From the NCBI GenBank assembly GCA_034659915.1, contig JAYEID010000010.1, positions 660 through 64,659 on the forward strand: a DNA stretch of 64,000 bases. The letters are read 5' to 3'. The notes beneath the pieces were generated by a model, which made no database searches, was not told the origin of the DNA, and saw nothing but the letters and a program-made list of their open reading frames with translations. Shown here piece after piece: positions 33,806 through 64,000 of the stretch (within the stretch, counting starts at the first letter, position 1; each line of letters starts with the position of its first letter). Origin of the DNA: Patescibacteria group bacterium. GTDB taxonomy: Bacteria > Patescibacteriota > WWE3 > JAUXAW01 > JAYEID01. The translations under genes and the position numbers were made by a program.

Positions 33806-34063
33806 TAGTTGGTAATTAGAGACTAGTAACTAGTAACTAGTAACTAGTAACTAGTAATTAGTAATTAGTAACTAGTAATTAGATATCCGCCATTCCGCTA
33901 TCAGCAATTAACAATCAACAATAAGCAATCAGCAATCAACAATAAGCAATTATTTTCCACTTCCCTTTATTCCTTATTCGTAGTGTATTTGCCATACGAA
34001 TAGGATTTATACCTTAATTATTCGTAACGTATTAGCTATCCCAGTTTTTGTTATAATTAGGCT
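33806..34063. repeat. composite spacer repeat: (tagtaac)n, then gcgga-type units, then (caatcaa/cagcaat)n, then (ccttatt)n, then AGGATTTATACCTTAATTATTCGTA box
   Basis: About 70 bp, ccgctatcagcaattaacaatcaacaataagcaattattttccac(t/c)tccctttattccttattc, recur at 59950-60020; inverted at 48000-48060 and 63850-63890. Confidence 0.7.
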
Positions 34064-35206
34064 ATGATTGATCATGCAGAAATAGTAGTAGAGGGCGGAA
34101 ACGGTGGTCCTGGTATTGTTTCTTTTCGCCGCGAGAAATTTAGGCCACGCGGCGGTCCAGACGGTGGTAGGGGGGGCAAAGGAGGAGACGTGTATTTCGT
34201 TGCAGATGAAAATCTTACTACCTTAGCAGATCTTACTCGCGAGAGATATTTTCAAGCACCATCGGGAGAGCGTGGGAAGTCTGGTGGAAAGCGCGGCAAA
34301 TCAGGAAAAGATTTAACTCTTAAAGTCCCAGTTGGAACTGAAGTTTGGCAGAAGACAGAAGATGATGATCTGCGGTTATTGGCGGATCTCTGCGACCACG
34401 GTGAACAAGTTCTGGTTGCTAAAGGAGGGCGTGGGGGGCGGGGTAATCGTGCGCTTAGAACTACGGATAACCCCTTGCCACGTGAAGCAGAGGAAGGCCA
34501 ACCGGGCGAGAGAAAAAGAATAGTTTTGGAATTAAAGCTAATAGCAGATGTGGGTATTGTAGGTTTTCCAAATGCAGGTAAGTCTACACTTCTAAGAGCT
34601 CTGACTCATGCAGATCCCAAGATAGCTTCTTACCCCTTTACTACCCTTGAACCTAATCTTGGAGTTTTTAGAAAGAACTCTAAGGCTATTGTTCTTGCTG
34701 ACATACCCGGGTTAATAGAGGGTGCGTCCGAGGGTAGGGGATTAGGTGATGAGTTTCTTAGGCATATTGAGCGAACAAGAATAATTTTGCATGTCATAGA
34801 TCCCACTTCTGCGGCGTTGGAGTTAAACAAGCCATGTTCGGTAGAGACTACTATGAAGGCTTACAATCTTCTCAGAGAGGAGCTTGGGGACTATTCTAAG
34901 AATCTTTTAGAAAGCCCGGAGCTAATAGTTATAAATAAGGTAGACTTGCCAGATGTGGCAGGTCTAAAGGAAGGTTTAGAGGAGAAATTCGCAAGTCGCG
35001 ATATCCCCATAACTTTTGTTTCAGCACTTACTGGTGAGGGGCTGGGGACTTTGGGAGATATATTACTGGAAAAGGTAAAAACTGCTCCTAGACCAGAAAA
35101 AAGGGAAGAACCCTTACCTGTGTTTGGTATTTCAGATCTTAAAAATAAGCAAATTGTTTTTAGGGAAGGCTTGCCTGTGGTAAAATGGTCGGGAAAGAGC
35201 CCGTAA
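34064..35206 (+). CDS. obg: GTPase Obg
   Basis: Gly-rich Obg fold [16 protein letters not shown]...GGKGGDVY and G1 motif [11 protein letters not shown]. Confidence 0.9.
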
Positions 35207-35209
35207 CGC

Positions 35210-35284
35210 GGGGTCGTAGCTCAATGGGAGAGCACCTCATTCGCATTGAGGAGGTTAGGGGTTCGAATCCCCTCGACTCCACCA
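35210..35284 (+). tRNA. tRNA-Ala (CGC)
   Basis: Acceptor GGGGTCG/CGACTCC with G3:U70, anticodon loop TTCGCAT, T-loop TTCGAAT, CCA encoded; followed by the tRNA-adjacent cassette at 35285-35408. Confidence 0.85.
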
Positions 35285-35408
35285 CCCCGACATATAGAAT
35301 TAGCAGACCGACTCCCGTCGGGGCCTGCCCCGCACAGTTTTACATGTAGGGGGTGCGCTGCAGGAAGCGTTCTTATGCTTTGTATTGCGGTGCAATTTAC
35401 AACAAATT

Positions 35409-61627: not shown

Positions 61628-63525
61628 TTATGAAAAAAAGAATTATAAAAAATGCTGTTTTCCTTAGCTTAGCACTAATTGCAGTTGCTGCTACCTCAAT
61701 AAAGGCGCTTACCAATTCCGATATTTGGCTTTGGCTCCGGGTGGGAGAAACTGTAGTAAAAGGAAAAATCATTCCCCAGCAAGATTTTCTCTCCCACACT
61801 GCTTGGGGGAGACCTTGGATAGTACATGGGTGGGGTTTTGGAGCTCTAACTTATTTAGCCTACACAATAGGAAATGAAATAGCACTAGCTTGCCTAAGAC
61901 TAGCAATAAGCTTAGGAACATTTCTAGCTCTTTTCAAAAGAAGCAAAATCCTAAAGTCGGGAATCCCTCAGTTTGCAGCCGTCGCAACCACAGGCTTTTT
62001 TACTATTAGCAATGCTTGGATGCTTAGACCCCACATTTTGGGAGGTTTTCTTCTTACCTTTCTTCTCCTAACCATTGATCTCTACCGAATTAAAAACCCG
62101 AAATATATTCTCCTAGCTCCAATATTAATTCTTTTTTGGGCAAACACTCACGCAAGCTTACCTTTAGGACTTGTTCTTCTCTTTATTTTACTAGGAAGCG
62201 AACTCTCAGAAGATATTCTCTCTCCCCAAACAAAAGGGTCTTTTCAACCTCTAATCCAAAGCAAGAAAACAAAGTTGTTAAATATTGCTATTTTCTTAAG
62301 CATTCTTGCCTCTCTTGTAAATCCCTATGGTATTAAAATCTACCAGTACTTTTTTAAAATAAGTGACACTGTAAAACAGAATATTCTCGAGTGGCTACCT
62401 CTTGCCAACTTTCTCAATTGGGAAAATGCCCAATACTTTTTAATTTTCCTAGCAATAAGTCTGTTAGCCCTGATCTTAGTTGCAACCCTCCTGCCCACAA
62501 AAATTAGCCATTGGGAAATAGCTCTGACACTAATTTCAGCTTACCTTGCAATCTCCGCTCTTCGCCATATAGTAATTGCCGTCCTAATCCTAATTCCCTT
62601 GGTCTCAAAAAATATCACCATGCTTACTGAAAAGTTACGAGGGATAAAAAGGTACATCTTAGAAGCTCTTTTTGTCTTGTTAATAACTACTGTAGGCTTC
62701 AATGCAACAAAAAGTGTAGCAAAGGAAGGTTGGGGCTTGCGTTGGGATATTTTGTCACCCCAAGCAATCCAATTTCTAAAACAGAACCCCCCAAATGGAA
62801 AAATGTACAACCACTTTAACTTTGGAAGTATTTTGCTTTGGCATCTTTATCCTGACTATAAAACATTTATTGATGGGAGAGTAGACATGTTTGCTCCAGA
62901 TATATACAAAGAGTGGCTTGCAGCAGCCACTGACGAAAACAATTGGGAAAGCATTTTCCAAAAATATCAAGTAAGCTGGGTAATTTTCCCAACCAAAGAC
63001 ATATGGCCCGGGCTTAAAGAAAAAGTAAATAACGGCAGCTGGTGCGTGGTTTTCTGGGACGATACTGCTAGTATTATTCTCAAAAAGGAAAATAACACCG
63101 AACTATGCTCAGCTCTAGCTTACAACTATGGAAACCCGTTTCTTCCTGAGGATGAAATAACTAATTATCAACAAATAATTGAAGAATATAAAAGATCAAT
63201 AAAAGCCTCTCCTTACAACGCAAGTACCCACAACAAATTAGGAAAGCTCTACGGGGAGCTTGGCGAATTTGAAAAAGCTGAAAATGAATTTCAAGAAGCT
63301 ATAGAAAAAAACCCCACATATGTAATTCCCTATCTTAATCTTGCTTCCCTAAAAGAACGAGAAGACCCCCAACAAAGCATTAAAATTCTTGAGAAAGCGA
63401 TTAAAGAAAACCCCCAAGCACCGCAACCCTACCAAGAACTTTCTCAGCTCTACAGACAAATTTGGGGAGATACAAAAAAGGCAAATAAATACTTGAAATT
63501 GTATCAAAAAAAAAGTAGCAAGTAG
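61615..63525 (+). CDS. polytopic membrane protein with C-terminal TPR repeats, putative glycosyltransferase
   Basis: About 11 N-terminal TM helices and C-terminal TPR (YNASTHNKLGKLYGELGEFEKAENEFQEAIEKNPTYVIPYLNLAS). Confidence 0.35.
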   Translation: MVGVIMKKRIIKNAVFLSLALIAVAATSIKALTNSDIWLWLRVGETVVKGKIIPQQDFLSHTAWGRPWIVHGWGFGALTYLAYTIGNEIALACLRLAISLGTFLALFKRSKILKSGIPQFAAVATTGFFTISNAWMLRPHILGGFLLTFLLLTIDLYRIKNPKYILLAPILILFWANTHASLPLGLVLLFILLGSELSEDILSPQTKGSFQPLIQSKKTKLLNIAIFLSILASLVNPYGIKIYQYFFKISDTVKQNILEWLPLANFLNWENAQYFLIFLAISLLALILVATLLPTKISHWEIALTLISAYLAISALRHIVIAVLILIPLVSKNITMLTEKLRGIKRYILEALFVLLITTVGFNATKSVAKEGWGLRWDILSPQAIQFLKQNPPNGKMYNHFNFGSILLWHLYPDYKTFIDGRVDMFAPDIYKEWLAAATDENNWESIFQKYQVSWVIFPTKDIWPGLKEKVNNGSWCVVFWDDTASIILKKENNTELCSALAYNYGNPFLPEDEITNYQQIIEEYKRSIKASPYNASTHNKLGKLYGELGEFEKAENEFQEAIEKNPTYVIPYLNLASLKEREDPQQSIKILEKAIKENPQAPQPYQELSQLYRQIWGDTKKANKYLKLYQKKSSK

Positions 63526-63605
63526 TCAGCAGTAAGCATAAAATCACGAGAACATAAAAACATGAAAACATTCAAACAATGATTAACTGATTTATGATTT
63601 AGGAA

Positions 63606-63712
63606 TAAGACAGGCAGGCAGGGACTCGGACCTGAAAGTCCTGCGGGGGCAGTACCACACGGGGTACACCCTGTAGGTTTCGGAATCGAATCCCCGGAGG
63701 TCTCGGCAGGGA
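63606..63712 (-). repeat. REP-X repeat copy, inverted relative to the copy at 60080-60185
   Basis: gggactcggacctgaaagtcctgcggggg[cagtaccacacggggtacacc]ctgtaggtttcggaatcgaatccccggaggtctcgg is the reverse complement of aagacctccggggattcgattccgaaaccccgcaggacttttaggttcgagtccc (60104-60158), with a 25-nt hairpin insert. Confidence 0.65.
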
Positions 63713-63719
63713 AAGAAAA

Positions 63720-64000
63720 AACAAGGGACTGGAAACAGGAGACACGTTAAGCAGAATGCGGAAAGCGGAACGCGGAGGGCGGATTGCAGAGAGAAATTAG
63801 CCTATGGCTGAAATTGGGAGAAATTACGGGAAGACCTGTGAAATTAAAGAAGAAATAATTGCTTATTGTTGATTGTTAGTTGCTGACAGCGGTAAGCGGA
63901 AGGCTAATACCCGCCAAAATCTTGACAACACTTACCAATAATAGTTAGCTTGTTACTCAGAGGCAAATGCCCTAGTAAGCTTTGGAAAAGCAGTCCTTTA
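63720..64000. repeat. composite spacer repeat (gcgga units, then inverted caat block aattgcttattgttgattgttagttgctg)
   Basis: Mirror image of the left-flank spacer 59900-60020. Confidence 0.6.

What the first reader, a model, noticed from the sequence alone, without database searches (positions are those of the whole stretch)
33806..64000. Spacers are assembled from a small vocabulary of short tandem units, forming mosaic repeats shared across loci
Intergenic regions at 27828-27900, 33806-34063, 46589-46784, 47928-48183, 50900-51185, 52404-52673, 55310-55660, 57440-57548, 58333-58622, 59034-59102, 59532-60304 and 63526-64000 are largely imperfect tandem runs of 6-9-nt units. Units seen: tagtaac/tagtagc, taaatac, gcggaa(c/t), caat(c/t)aa/cagcaat, ccttatt, attcg(t/c)ag. 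The same blocks recur in different orders and orientations. For example a roughly 70-bp caat/ccttatt block at 33893-33975 reappears at 59950-60020 and, inverted, at 48000-48060 and 63850-63890. A conserved box AGGAT(T/A)(T/C)ATACCTTAATTATT(C/T)G(T/C)A sits 40-60 nt upstream of several starts (obg 33995, secE 57505, 55430, 55568; inverted at 50922 and 58345). This organisation is unusual for a streamlined genome. Possible roles are promoter/UP elements, a dispersed repeat family analogous to REP/BIME, or contingency (slippage) tracts.
Basis: seen in the sequence. Interest (0 to 1): 0.75.

Follow-up and report, generated by a model that had tools for sequence, protein, structure and literature searches.

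The report
Seven-base repeat mosaics fill gene spacers
The gaps between genes in this small Saccharibacteria (TM7) genome hold tandem 7-base repeats and shared sequence blocks, the same kind of "heptamer" satellite long known but unexplained in cyanobacteria and giant sulfur bacteria, here joined to promoter-like modules and inserted between genes that abut in relatives.

Summary
The tandem period is 7, not 6-9. Only 0-64% of each named spacer is a period-7 array, about 15% of spacer bases overall. The attcg(t/c)ag units are not heptamer arrays: they repeat every 10-13 nt next to gene boundaries. The shared blocks and six exact copies of the box are confirmed; none is expected by chance.

The window comes from a Saccharibacteria genome with almost no Shine-Dalgarno sites. 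The spacers hold copies, in either orientation, of a composite element with a mostly conserved module order: AACTAGT/AAATACT arrays, CCGCAAT grading into CAGCAAT arrays, CCTTATT arrays, GC-rich hairpins, then ATTYGYA units, the box and TAGNNTATTNGCTA.

Paralogous copies differ by whole 7-nt units. One 286-nt copy separates glgA from a GH57 gene, which overlap in a relative. Short-read contigs of this organism end inside the repeats.

The box end has -35-like/16-18 nt/TAGNNT geometry 10-12 nt before ATG, which suggests promoters for near-leaderless mRNAs. However, two of six copies point backwards.

Period-7 arrays occur in most related Saccharibacteria loci and in none of about 70 other bacterial nusG loci. 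This is a new member of the known heptamer-repeat kind. The function of the arrays remains inferred.

The parts
27828..27909 (+). A-type array (TAGTAGC/TAGTAAC) starting 2 nt after the stop codon of gene 26901-27827
33806..34063 (+). Forward composite spacer (M23 peptidase gene to obg). A array 33812-33885; C grading into D array 33891-33952; E units 33963-33984; box module 33968-34043 (box 34000-34022); extended -10 TGTTATAAT 34049-34057, 6 nt before the obg ATG
   Evidence: 33902-34063 confirmed by independent contigs L001/L002
46589..46784 (.). mreB-GT4 spacer. (TAAATAC)n grading into AGCTACT/AATTACT units at 46712-46783, ending 1 nt before the ATG. 46600-46643 is 91% identical to 55410-55367 (inverted)
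   Evidence: array unstructured, z +1.2; L105 contig starts at 46733
47928..48183 (-). GT4-WecG spacer. CAAATNA units 47928-47953; GAAATTA-hairpin (H) units 47958-48022; inverted D core 48025-48060; inverted E-like array 48064-48089; ACGAAAT units 48091-48113; AAATACT/ACTACT array 48122-48183, abutting the ATG
50900..51185 (-). Reverse composite inserted between glgA and GH57. Inverted box module 50897-50965 (box 50918-50940); inverted F/E arrays 50993-51082; TAAAAT 51171-51176, 9 nt before the GH57 ATG. Flanked by ATGAAG on both sides
   Evidence: glgA and GH57 overlap in L083 and are about 40 nt apart in L004
52404..52673 (-). Reverse composite (GH57 to GH57/UVR). Inverted D core 52408-52440; inverted C array (GCGGAAC type) 52503-52539; TAACGTA units 52548-52572; inverted A array 52576-52624
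55307..55660 (+). Forward composite (APH to putative 6S RNA). A/B array 55307-55374 starting at the stop codon; two box modules 55408-55500 and 55530-55612 (boxes 55440-55462 and 55564-55586); ATTCGCT units with 13-nt period 55595-55633; TTGACA-17-TAATTT at 55632-55660 before the 6S-like RNA
   Evidence: the orthologous L004 spacer is about 24 nt
57440..57548 (+). ATTYGTAG units (period about 11) plus box module upstream of secE. Box 57505-57527; TTTATA-16-TAGATT 57511-57538; ATTAGCTATACCA abuts the ATG
58328..58622 (.). nusG to PD-(D/E)XK (GxxExxY) gene spacer. Inverted box module 58328-58410 (box 58346-58368; inverted TAGNNTATTNGCTA overlaps the nusG stop); inverted G hairpin module 58395-58520; forward units with TTGTAG-17-TAGAAT 58582-58610 and ATTGGCTATATA before the ATG
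   Evidence: the L003 orthologue has the same inverted/forward motif pair but lacks the box and G
59034..59102 (+). Whole spacer before rplK built of ATTTGTAG/GATTAG units. TTGTAG-17-TAGAGT 59064-59092, then ATTAGCTATA and the ATG
   Evidence: 3' part conserved in L003 1377-1416
59532..60304 (+). Largest forward composite, at a synteny break (rplJ-rplL missing after rplK). A/B arrays 59695-59767 and 59813-59835; C grading into D array 59909-59986; (CCTTATT)7 59997-60048; G module 60083-60225 with a 40-nt GC palindrome 60164-60203; ATTCGCA units (period 10) 60215-60290; TTCGCA-18-TAATAT 60265-60294
   Evidence: (z -7)
63513..64000 (-). Reverse composite, cut by the window end. AAGTAGC units spanning the stop codon 63513-63526; inverted G 63600-63742; inverted C array 63749-63793; H units 63790-63850; inverted D core 63853-63892
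11195..11475 (+).
16861..17241 (+). Duplicated insertion in the 23S rRNA gene. Its two arms are heptamer arrays, (CAAATNA)n and (TTTGGAT)n, which pair into a hairpin. 16905-16938 is 91% identical to 47917-47950
   Evidence: z -3.4

Best explanation
The spacers hold copies of a lineage-specific composite intergenic repeat. Most of each copy is heptanucleotide satellite DNA, of the same kind as cyanobacterial STRR arrays and Beggiatoaceae TAACTGA repeats.

Shown:
- The arrays have a strict 7-nt period and lie in non-coding DNA.
- Neighbouring unit families grade into each other by single-base changes (TCCGCAA to TCAGCAA to TCAACAA; TTATTCC to TTATTCG).
- Paralogous copies differ by whole numbers of units.
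- A D-array core is shared by five spacers and is 100% identical over 32-36 nt in three of them.
- Copies occur in both orientations, mostly with a conserved module order.
- One copy sits between genes that overlap in a relative.

Inferred:
- The arrays grow and shrink by slipped-strand mispairing in 7-nt steps.
- Whole composites, or parts of them, spread between spacers by insertion or gene conversion.
- The end carrying the ATTYGYA(G) units, the box and TAGNNTATTNGCTA acts as a sigma-70-type promoter (-35-like TTGTAG/TTCGCA/TTTATA, 16-18 nt, -10 TAGNNT) whose transcripts start a few bases before the ATG. This would suit a genome that has almost no Shine-Dalgarno sites.
- Insertion would therefore split former operons and supply new starts.
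- The heptamer arrays themselves would be mostly passenger spacer DNA. The self-complementary (AACTAGT)n arrays that follow stop codons may form transcript-end hairpins.
For: - Period 7 only, and only in spacers.
- Dispersed blocks are confined to non-coding DNA.
- Module map and orientations.
- Unit counts in copy 33884 vs copy 59905: C 2 vs 6, D 7 vs 4, E 2 vs 7.
- glgA and GH57 overlap in L083 and are about 40 nt apart in L004, but are 286 nt apart here. APH to the 6S-like RNA is about 24 nt in L004 and 351 nt here.
- Independent short-read contigs of the same organism are 100% identical to the window and end exactly inside repeat blocks (L001 at 33902 and 43913; L105 at 46733 and 48056).
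- Period-7 arrays (3-16 nt/kb) occur in most Saccharibacteria relatives down to 48% NusG identity and in none of about 70 non-Saccharibacteria nusG loci (two other non-Saccharibacteria loci each had a single 21-nt array). Unit sequences differ between relatives.
- TAGNNTATTNGCTA: 8 matches vs 1.3 expected. There are 4 exact matches in the 4.4-kb relative L003, 3 of them 2-4 nt before start codons, and none in the other 103 loci.
- Hexamer geometry at secE, the PD-(D/E)XK gene, rplK and gene 60305 matches that of clear TGnTAAAAT/TATAAT promoters 6-12 nt before other ATGs.
Against: - No transposase or recombinase gene is in the window.
- Terminal inverted repeats and target duplication are only hinted at: one ATGAAG pair and one inverted motif pair.
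- Module order is not always conserved. At 48025-48113 the order is D-E-F with every module inverted.
- 2 of 6 box modules point into the 3' end of the upstream gene.
- Box-to-start distance varies, from 22 and 42 nt (secE, obg) to about 75 and 200 nt from the putative 6S RNA start.
- A generic promoter scan finds fewer sites than in shuffles (30 vs 38.7).
- No transcription data exist.
- No unit-number change was seen between strains, so slippage is inferred from paralogues only.
- The box was absent from GTDB representative genomes and from JGI metagenomes, so only this window and 4.4 kb of L003 inform the module.
Confidence: 0.55

Rival explanations
1. The heptamer arrays are functional binding platforms on RNA or DNA. 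For example, they could be unstructured A/U-rich landing sites for ribosomal protein S1 or another single-strand binder, replacing Shine-Dalgarno sites, as proposed for TAACTGA repeats in Beggiatoaceae. Alternatively they could be arrays for a DNA-binding protein.
For: - Arrays B, D and E are unstructured (z 0 to +1.2).
- AAATACT/ACTACT arrays end 0-1 nt before the ATG of genes 46785 and 48184, which lack both an SD site and a nearby -10 hexamer.
- The genome encodes S1 with four S1 domains, and Rho.
- The tendency to carry arrays in the same orthologous spacers persists across relatives even though unit sequences change.
- A precedent exists in PMC4679880.
Against: - The same arrays occur in both orientations although nearly all genes are on one strand, so the RNA would be C-rich in some copies and G-rich in others.
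- Many arrays lie after stop codons or in mid-spacer.
- Unit sequence is not conserved between relatives.
- No binding protein has been identified.
Confidence: 0.15
2. The composites are non-autonomous mobile elements (MITE- or REP/BIME-like), moved in trans by a transposase encoded elsewhere in the genome, for example a Y1/RAYT-type enzyme. The heptamer arrays are internal filler.
For: - Insertion relative to relatives, with an ATGAAG...ATGAAG flank.
- Both orientations occur, and the ends abut ORF boundaries.
- TAGNNTATTNGCTA is inverted at the two ends of the nusG to PD-(D/E)XK spacer, in both the window and L003.
- A 32-36 nt core is 100% identical in three copies.
- GTAG recurs in the end units.
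- A weak Y1_Tnp gene is present in relative L103.
Against: - No full-length near-identical copies exist. Copies share blocks of 30-75 nt, not whole elements.
- Termini are not uniform.
- Only one possible target duplication was found, and it coincides with a start codon that both genes need.
- No transposase is in the window.
- There is no match in phage or plasmid collections.
Confidence: 0.2
3. The arrays are contingency loci. Slippage changes unit number and switches expression of neighbouring genes on and off.
For: Tandem short units are slippage-prone by nature. Paralogous copies differ in unit number.
Against: - Neighbouring genes are housekeeping genes (obg, mreB, glgA, secE, rplK).
- Arrays are not within ORFs here, nor between -35 and -10.
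- L001, L002 and L105 from two samples are identical to the window.
- Strains L083 and L084 (16 mismatches in 12.7 kb) have no indel in any heptamer array.
Confidence: 0.05
4. The pattern is a by-product of base composition, or an assembly artefact.
For: The genome is AT-rich (42% GC), and the repeats do break assemblies.
Against: - Shuffles give 0-1 arrays against 22 observed.
- Markov expectation is exceeded 3-10x in spacers only.
- Independent contigs reproduce the sequence exactly.
- Relatives show the same phenomenon.
Confidence: 0.01

Closest known systems
Cyanobacterial STRR (short tandemly repeated repetitive) heptanucleotide arrays, and heptanucleotide 'long simple sequence repeats' in general. 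Source: my own knowledge of Mazel et al. 1990, and Mrazek et al. 2007 as summarised in PMC4679880.
   Same: 7-nt tandem units. Several unit families per genome. Mostly intergenic. Also found inside stable-RNA genes (here the 23S insertion; in cyanobacteria the RNase P RNA gene, from memory). Function unknown. Slippage is the proposed origin.
   Different: The unit sequences are unrelated: CCCCAGT, TTGGTCA and CAACAGT occur here only as 4-8 scattered singletons. The host is a small-genome Saccharibacteria, not a large cyanobacterial genome. Here the arrays sit in a recurring order together with promoter-like and hairpin modules.
TAACTGA direct repeats of marine Beggiatoaceae, and mixed heptamer assemblages in Microcystis, Gramella, Aequorivita and Elizabethkingia (MacGregor 2015, PMC4679880)
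   Same: Intergenic heptamer arrays. Often directly upstream of start codons that lack Shine-Dalgarno sites, including ribosomal-protein genes. Nearly identical multi-heptamer spacers at different loci (Elizabethkingia). Contigs end in the repeats. Relatives have shorter repeat-free spacers at the same position.
   Different: TAACTGA itself is not repeated here (11 singletons). BOGUAY uses essentially one unit in forward orientation near starts. This genome uses at least five families in both orientations, as often after stop codons as before starts.
REP/BIME (bacterial interspersed mosaic elements) of enterobacteria and pseudomonads (from my own knowledge)
   Same: Extragenic mosaics built from a small vocabulary of short motifs, in alternating orientations, at many loci.
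   Different: REP units are 20-40 nt imperfect palindromes. Here most units are non-palindromic tandem heptamers with no predicted structure. No RAYT gene was seen.
Putative mobile promoters: homologous intergenic sequences upstream of unrelated genes (Nijveen, Matus-Garcia et al. 2012, from memory)
   Same: A roughly 75-nt module of about 80-88% identity with promoter-like hexamers lies upstream of unrelated genes (obg, the 6S-like RNA, secE). Related units lie upstream of rplK, the PD-(D/E)XK gene, gene 60305 and mnmA.
   Different: Two copies face the wrong way. Promoter activity is untested.

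Membership tests
Heptanucleotide tandem-repeat satellites (STRR / LSSR class) | Head-to-tail direct repeats with a 7-nt unit, longer than chance | tested here: met
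   22 arrays vs 0-1 in shuffles. Lag-7/14/21 autocorrelation peaks. Other periods near zero.
Heptanucleotide tandem-repeat satellites (STRR / LSSR class) | Predominantly non-coding location | tested here: met
   916 spacer nt vs 0 genic nt in TRF period 7/14/21 arrays within 33806-64000. Exceptions elsewhere: the 23S insertion and short in-frame runs in leuS and gene 32549.
Heptanucleotide tandem-repeat satellites (STRR / LSSR class) | Length change in steps of one unit | tested here: inconclusive
   Paralogous copies differ by whole units (C 2 vs 6, D 7 vs 4, E 2 vs 7). No change was seen between strains or samples.
Cyanobacterial STRR1-3 / Beggiatoaceae TAACTGA repeats (by sequence) | Unit sequence CCCCAGT, TTGGTCA, CAACAGT or TAACTGA in tandem | tested here: not met
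   Only 4-11 scattered singletons of each unit and no arrays.
REP/BIME | Basic unit is an imperfect palindrome that forms a stable hairpin | tested here: not met
   Array-rich spacers fold no better than shuffles (z +1.2, -0.3, +0.3, +1.3). Only the (AACTAGT)n array and the separate GC-rich G/H modules are hairpin-forming.
REP/BIME | Cognate RAYT (Y1 transposase) gene in the genome | not testable with these tools
   None among the window's ORFs. The rest of the genome is not available.
MITE | Terminal inverted repeats and target-site duplication | tested here: inconclusive
   TAGNNTATTNGCTA is inverted at both ends of 58328-58622 and of its L003 orthologue. An ATGAAG pair flanks 50900-51185. 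There is no uniform terminus across copies.
MITE | Empty sites in related genomes | tested here: met
   glgA and GH57 overlap in L083. nusG and rplK overlap or abut in L085, L102 and L104. APH to the 6S-like RNA is about 24 nt in L004.
Contingency (phase-variable) SSR loci | The repeat lies in an ORF or in the -35/-10 spacer of a variable-expression gene, and its length differs between close strains | tested here: not met
   Arrays flank housekeeping genes outside the core promoter. No length differences in L001, L002 or L105 vs the window, or in L083 vs L084. The sample is small.
Sigma-70-type promoter / UP element | -35 and -10 hexamers 16-18 nt apart at a fixed short distance from the transcript start, oriented towards the gene | tested here: inconclusive
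   The geometry is present at secE, the PD-(D/E)XK gene, rplK and gene 60305, and at three L003 genes. It matches clear promoters elsewhere in the window. But the generic scan is not enriched, box position varies, 2 of 6 modules are reversed, and there are no TSS data.

The most novel reading that the evidence does not exclude
Heptamer-repeat composites could be an active spacer-invading system in Saccharibacteria. On this reading they insert between tightly packed or overlapping genes, bring near-leaderless promoters, and travel with small selfish nuclease genes. Examples seen here are the PD-(D/E)XK 'GxxExxY' gene between nusG and rplK, and in relative L004 a 23S-IVS-protein gene framed by inverted heptamer arrays. 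From memory, these gene families are also multi-copy in the cyanobacteria, Bacteroidetes and Beggiatoaceae that carry heptamer repeats. If so, one shared and possibly horizontally transferred mechanism would generate heptamer satellites across phyla, and a genome of about 1 Mb would be the simplest place to find it.
Probability: 0.12. Interest if true: 0.8.

Novelty: new member of a known kind. Interest (0 to 1): 0.5.

Why it matters
Heptanucleotide satellites have been known in cyanobacteria since about 1990, and later in giant sulfur bacteria and some Bacteroidetes. No mechanism or function has been established for them.

Three points make this case useful:
- The same kind of repeat fills spacers of an ultra-small Saccharibacteria genome and occurs across its relatives, which extends the phenomenon to the Candidate Phyla Radiation. 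I found no paper mentioning it there.
- A genome with few DNA-handling proteins narrows the list of candidate causes.
- In these organisms the repeats also enter an rRNA insertion and, in relatives, a loop of ribosomal protein L10.

There is also a practical consequence. These repeats fragment short-read assemblies of this lineage into gene-sized contigs, which biases MAG completeness and gene-context analyses.

Tried and rejected
- **HIP1 (GCGATCGC) and known heptamers.** Absent or only singletons, so this is not a cyanobacterium and the units are not the known ones.
- **Box in GTDB species representatives.** 0 hits.
- **Box in JGI metagenomes.** 12 hits, all chance matches with no flanking similarity.
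- **Largest composite against phage and plasmid collections.** No match.
- **Rfam.** The repeats match no family. Only a sub-threshold 6S hit at 55672-55812 was found.
- **Generic promoter/terminator scan.** No enrichment.
- **RNA-structure role for whole spacers.** Rejected for array-rich spacers, where z is about 0. Structure comes only from the GC-rich modules.
- **Rho-utilisation (rut) site idea.** Forward arrays are C-rich and unstructured, and Rho is encoded. Rejected as a general role because about half the copies are inverted and would give G-rich RNA.
- **Strain comparison for unit-number variation.** The only same-species contigs are identical, and they are cut at the repeats. L083 vs L084 differ only in 18-nt and 10/11-nt arrays at scaffold gaps.
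- **Exact-protein look-ups of nusG and APH.** Not on record.

Full report
**Identity of the window.** The window is 42% GC. Nearly all genes are on the + strand and GC skew is strongly positive. It carries an rRNA operon with large insertions: the 16S gene spans 2311 nt and the 23S gene 3397 nt. The closest NusG sequences in GTDB representative genomes are two 'uncultured Candidatus Saccharibacteria' MAGs, at 92% (L003) and 87% (L004) identity. Everything else is at most 52%. Gene content fits a Saccharibacteria/CPR genome: sortase, ComEC, and no L1 gene after L11. Shine-Dalgarno sequences are almost absent; only 1 of 41 listed starts has one.

**Check of the observation: tandem periodicity.** Tandem Repeats Finder lists dozens of period 7/14/21 arrays, almost all in spacers. 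Spacer DNA shows self-identity peaks at lags 7, 14 and 21 (0.321, 0.311, 0.303 against about 0.265), while coding DNA shows only period 3. A simple detector finds 22 period-7 arrays (710 nt) against 0-1 in twenty shuffles. Periods 5, 8, 9, 10 and 11 give almost nothing. The named units are 3-10 times above first-order Markov expectation in spacers and near expectation in genes.

**Check of the observation: shared blocks and box.** The box ATAGNATTYATACCTTAATTATT occurs six times exactly, with none expected.

**Corrections to the observation.**
- The period is 7, not 6-9.
- Arrays cover 0-64% of each named spacer. They cover 15% of all spacer bases in 33806-64000, or 36% when dispersed blocks are added.
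- Three named spacers (57440-57548, 58333-58622, 59034-59102) contain no heptamer array. They contain ATTYGYA(G) units spaced 10-13 nt apart.
- The box is not at a constant distance from starts.

**Anatomy: the vocabulary.** Reading and mapping the units gives three classes.
1. Heptamer arrays:
   - A/B: AACTAGT, AAGTAGT and AAATACT types, which form one family.
   - C: CCGCAAT type. It grades by single-base steps into D, the CAGCAAT/CAACAAT/TAAGCAA type.
   - E: CCTTATT. It grades into TTATTCG.
2. Gene-proximal ATTYGYA(G) units at roughly helical spacing. With them comes a box module of about 75 nt in six copies at about 80-88% identity. This class ends in TAGNNTATTNGCTA.
3. GC-rich hairpin modules, G and H, whose stems differ between copies while staying paired.

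**Anatomy: order and orientation.** In forward copies (33806-34063, 55307-55660, 59532-60304) the order is A/B, C-D, E, (G), ATTYGYA/box. The A end starts at or within a few nt of the upstream stop codon (27828, 33806, 55307, 63513), and the box end faces the downstream gene. Reverse copies (50900-51185, 52404-52673, 63526-64000, and the left part of 58333-58622) show the mirror arrangement: the box end abuts the upstream stop codon, or the A end abuts the next ATG. The order is not always kept. At 48025-48113, D, E and F are each inverted but keep the forward order. 'Mosaic' is therefore an apt word.

**Evidence on how the repeats change.**
- Two paralogous copies (33884-33990 and 59905-60062) share a 36-nt stretch at 100% identity. 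They differ by whole units: C 2 vs 6, D 7 vs 4, E 2 vs 7. This points to slippage in 7-nt steps together with recent copying or gene conversion.
- Orthologous loci were recovered through NusG homologues. They keep the gene order glgA, GH57, GH57/UVR, APH, 6S-like RNA, tRNAs, secE, nusG, rplK, but with much shorter spacers. glgA and GH57 overlap in L083 and are about 40 nt apart in L004. Here a 286-nt composite separates them, flanked by ATGAAG on each side. APH to the 6S-like RNA is about 24 nt in L004 and 351 nt here. nusG and rplK overlap or abut in L085, L102 and L104.
- At least some composites are therefore insertions in this lineage.
- The largest composite (59532-60304) lies at a synteny break. 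rplJ-rplL follow rplK in L003, L083, L088 and L102-L104, but not here.
- Short-read contigs of the same organism (L001, L002, L105) are exact substrings of the window, and their ends fall inside repeat blocks. This shows that the sequence is real and that the blocks are multi-copy genome-wide.

**Distribution among relatives.** Period-7 arrays at 3-16 nt/kb occur in most Saccharibacteria loci examined, down to 48% NusG identity: L003, L004, L083/84, L085, L088/89, L103, L104 and L007. Three loci have none (L086, L087, L102). None of about 70 non-Saccharibacteria nusG loci has one; two other non-Saccharibacteria loci (L006, L018) each have a single 21-nt array. Period 7 dominates in each Saccharibacteria locus that carries arrays. 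Unit sequences differ between relatives (ATTTACC, CAAATGN, AAACATN and others); only L003 shares the TAGTAAC type. In relatives the arrays often come as an array plus its inverse, forming long hairpins right after stop codons (L083 9219-9300, z -8). The 23S insertion in the window has the same build.

**Function of the box end.** Many genes here have a clear -10 (TGnTAAAAT or TATAAT) only 6-12 nt before the ATG, which implies leaderless or near-leaderless mRNAs. The repeat end reproduces that geometry:

| Gene | -35-like | Spacer (nt) | -10 | Distance to ATG (nt) |
|---|---|---|---|---|
| secE | TTTATA | 16 | TAGATT | 10 |
| PD-(D/E)XK gene | TTGTAG | 17 | TAGAAT | 12 |
| rplK | TTGTAG | 17 | TAGAGT | 10 |
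| gene 60305 | TTCGCA | 18 | TAATAT | 10 |

- Three L003 genes have the same arrangement.
- TAGNNTATTNGCTA is over-represented: 8 matches vs 1.3 expected. It occurs four times exactly in L003 and in none of the other 103 loci.

This supports a promoter plus short-leader role for that end. Four points count against a simple promoter reading of the box itself:
- Its distance to starts varies.
- At obg and at the 6S-like RNA, separate canonical promoters lie downstream of it (TGTTATAAT 34049-34057; TTGACA-17-TAATTT 55632-55660).
- Two of six modules are inverted and abut the glgA and nusG stop codons.
- A generic promoter scan shows no excess.

**Function of the heptamer arrays.** Arrays B, D and E are unstructured as RNA. 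(AACTAGT)n is self-complementary and folds on itself. Orientation is mixed although genes are co-oriented, which argues against a strand-specific RNA role such as a Rho-loading or S1-binding site as the general function. I could not find unit-number variation between close strains or samples, and the flanking genes are housekeeping, so a contingency role is unlikely. The best-supported reading is that the arrays are fast-evolving satellite DNA carried within dispersed composite spacers. Any spacer, hairpin or landing-pad role is an inference.

**Comparison with known systems.** The closest known kinds are:
- cyanobacterial STRR arrays;
- the TAACTGA and mixed-heptamer spacers of Beggiatoaceae, Microcystis and some Bacteroidetes (PMC4679880);
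- heptanucleotide 'long simple sequence repeats' generally (Mrazek 2007, as cited there).

Shared traits are the 7-nt unit, intergenic location, several unit families, proximity to SD-less starts, near-identical multi-heptamer spacers at different loci, assembly breaks, and repeat-free orthologous spacers in relatives. The unit sequences are different, and membership of REP/BIME fails on the hairpin criterion. Full-text searches found no paper linking Saccharibacteria with heptamer or tandem intergenic repeats.

**Verdict.** I file this as a new member of a known kind, in a new phylum and a very small genome, with an unusually clear composite organisation. Interest is moderate: 0.5.

Noticed in passing
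15850-15895, 16359-16404, 35285-35330, 43877-43920, 57325-57370, 57375-57420: A conserved nested hairpin, CCCCGAC-AUACAGA-[inner stem-loop]-UCC-GUCGGGG, follows the CCA end of tRNA-Ile, both tRNA-Ala genes and tRNA-Trp (two tandem copies after tRNA-Trp). 5 of 14 pairs show compensatory changes. It matches no Rfam family. It could be a tRNA trailer or processing element, or a tRNA-linked repeat.
   Followed up: partly
L083 10032-10067, L088 1699-1720, L103 9009-9044, L104 11343-11372: In four relatives a heptamer array lies inside rplJ, as an in-frame 8-13 aa insertion in a single loop of ribosomal protein L10. The insertion is absent from L102 and L003. In the window, leuS (36212-36234) also carries three in-frame units.
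   Followed up: partly
13148-15458, 16629-20025, 20090-20557: The rRNA genes are interrupted. The 16S gene spans 2311 nt and scores best against the archaeal model. The 23S gene spans 3397 nt, with a duplicated heptamer-armed insertion (16861-17241). A LAGLIDADG endonuclease ORF lies at 20090-20557, just downstream of the 23S match and upstream of 5S.
   Followed up: partly
55661-55830 (Rfam hit 55672-55812): A putative 6S RNA (37.5 bits, E 6.6e-5, below the gathering score) lies downstream of TTGACA-17-TAATTT. It is conserved at 78% with L004 8889-9279. A terminator-like hairpin follows at 55888-55913, then a second conserved non-coding stretch to about 56006.
   Followed up: partly
56619-56881: A frameshifted GIY-YIG endonuclease gene lies between tRNA-Tyr and tRNA-Thr. 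It is intact at the same place in L083, L084, L086 and L087.
   Followed up: no
56120-56165 and 57140-57185: tRNA-5'-half-like sequences lie just upstream of tRNA-Thr and tRNA-Trp (56128-56155 is 93% identical to 56227-56254). Each is followed by a hairpin and GGGRTCCCGMAGTTCTARCA. They could be decayed, split or intron-bearing tRNAs. The tRNA spacers here are 226-291 nt, whereas the tRNAs are packed together in L004.
   Followed up: no
58623-59033; L004 5840-6223: A PD-(D/E)XK 'GxxExxY' gene is inserted between nusG and rplK, here and in L003 only. In L004 a 23S-rRNA-IVS-protein gene sits between an (ATTTACC)n array and its inverse. Small selfish-looking genes therefore lie inside repeat-framed spacers.
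   Followed up: partly
60001-64000: GC skew turns negative (-0.17, -0.06) only over the block of membrane glycosyltransferase (60305) and TPR protein (61615), although both genes are on the + strand. The block is flanked by inverted D and G modules and replaces rplJ-rplL. It could be a recent insertion or inversion, or an effect of membrane-protein composition.
   Followed up: no
47958-48022 and 63790-63850: Tandem GAAATTA-hairpin-T units. The hairpin stems differ in sequence but stay paired: cttcc/ggaag, cgct/agcg, gcc/ggc, cggg/cctg.
   Followed up: no
L102, L103, L104 vs window: In more distant relatives the mreB-GT4-WecG-glgA-GH57-APH cluster lies downstream of rplL on the opposite strand. 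In the window's clade it lies upstream of secE on the same strand, so an inversion is associated with this region.
   Followed up: no
L083 7332-7480 and 11096-11245: Between two near-identical strains (L083 and L084) the only indels are in an 18-nt tandem array after a tRNA and in a 10/11-nt TCTCTTAAGT array after rplL. Both coincide with scaffold gaps.
   Followed up: no
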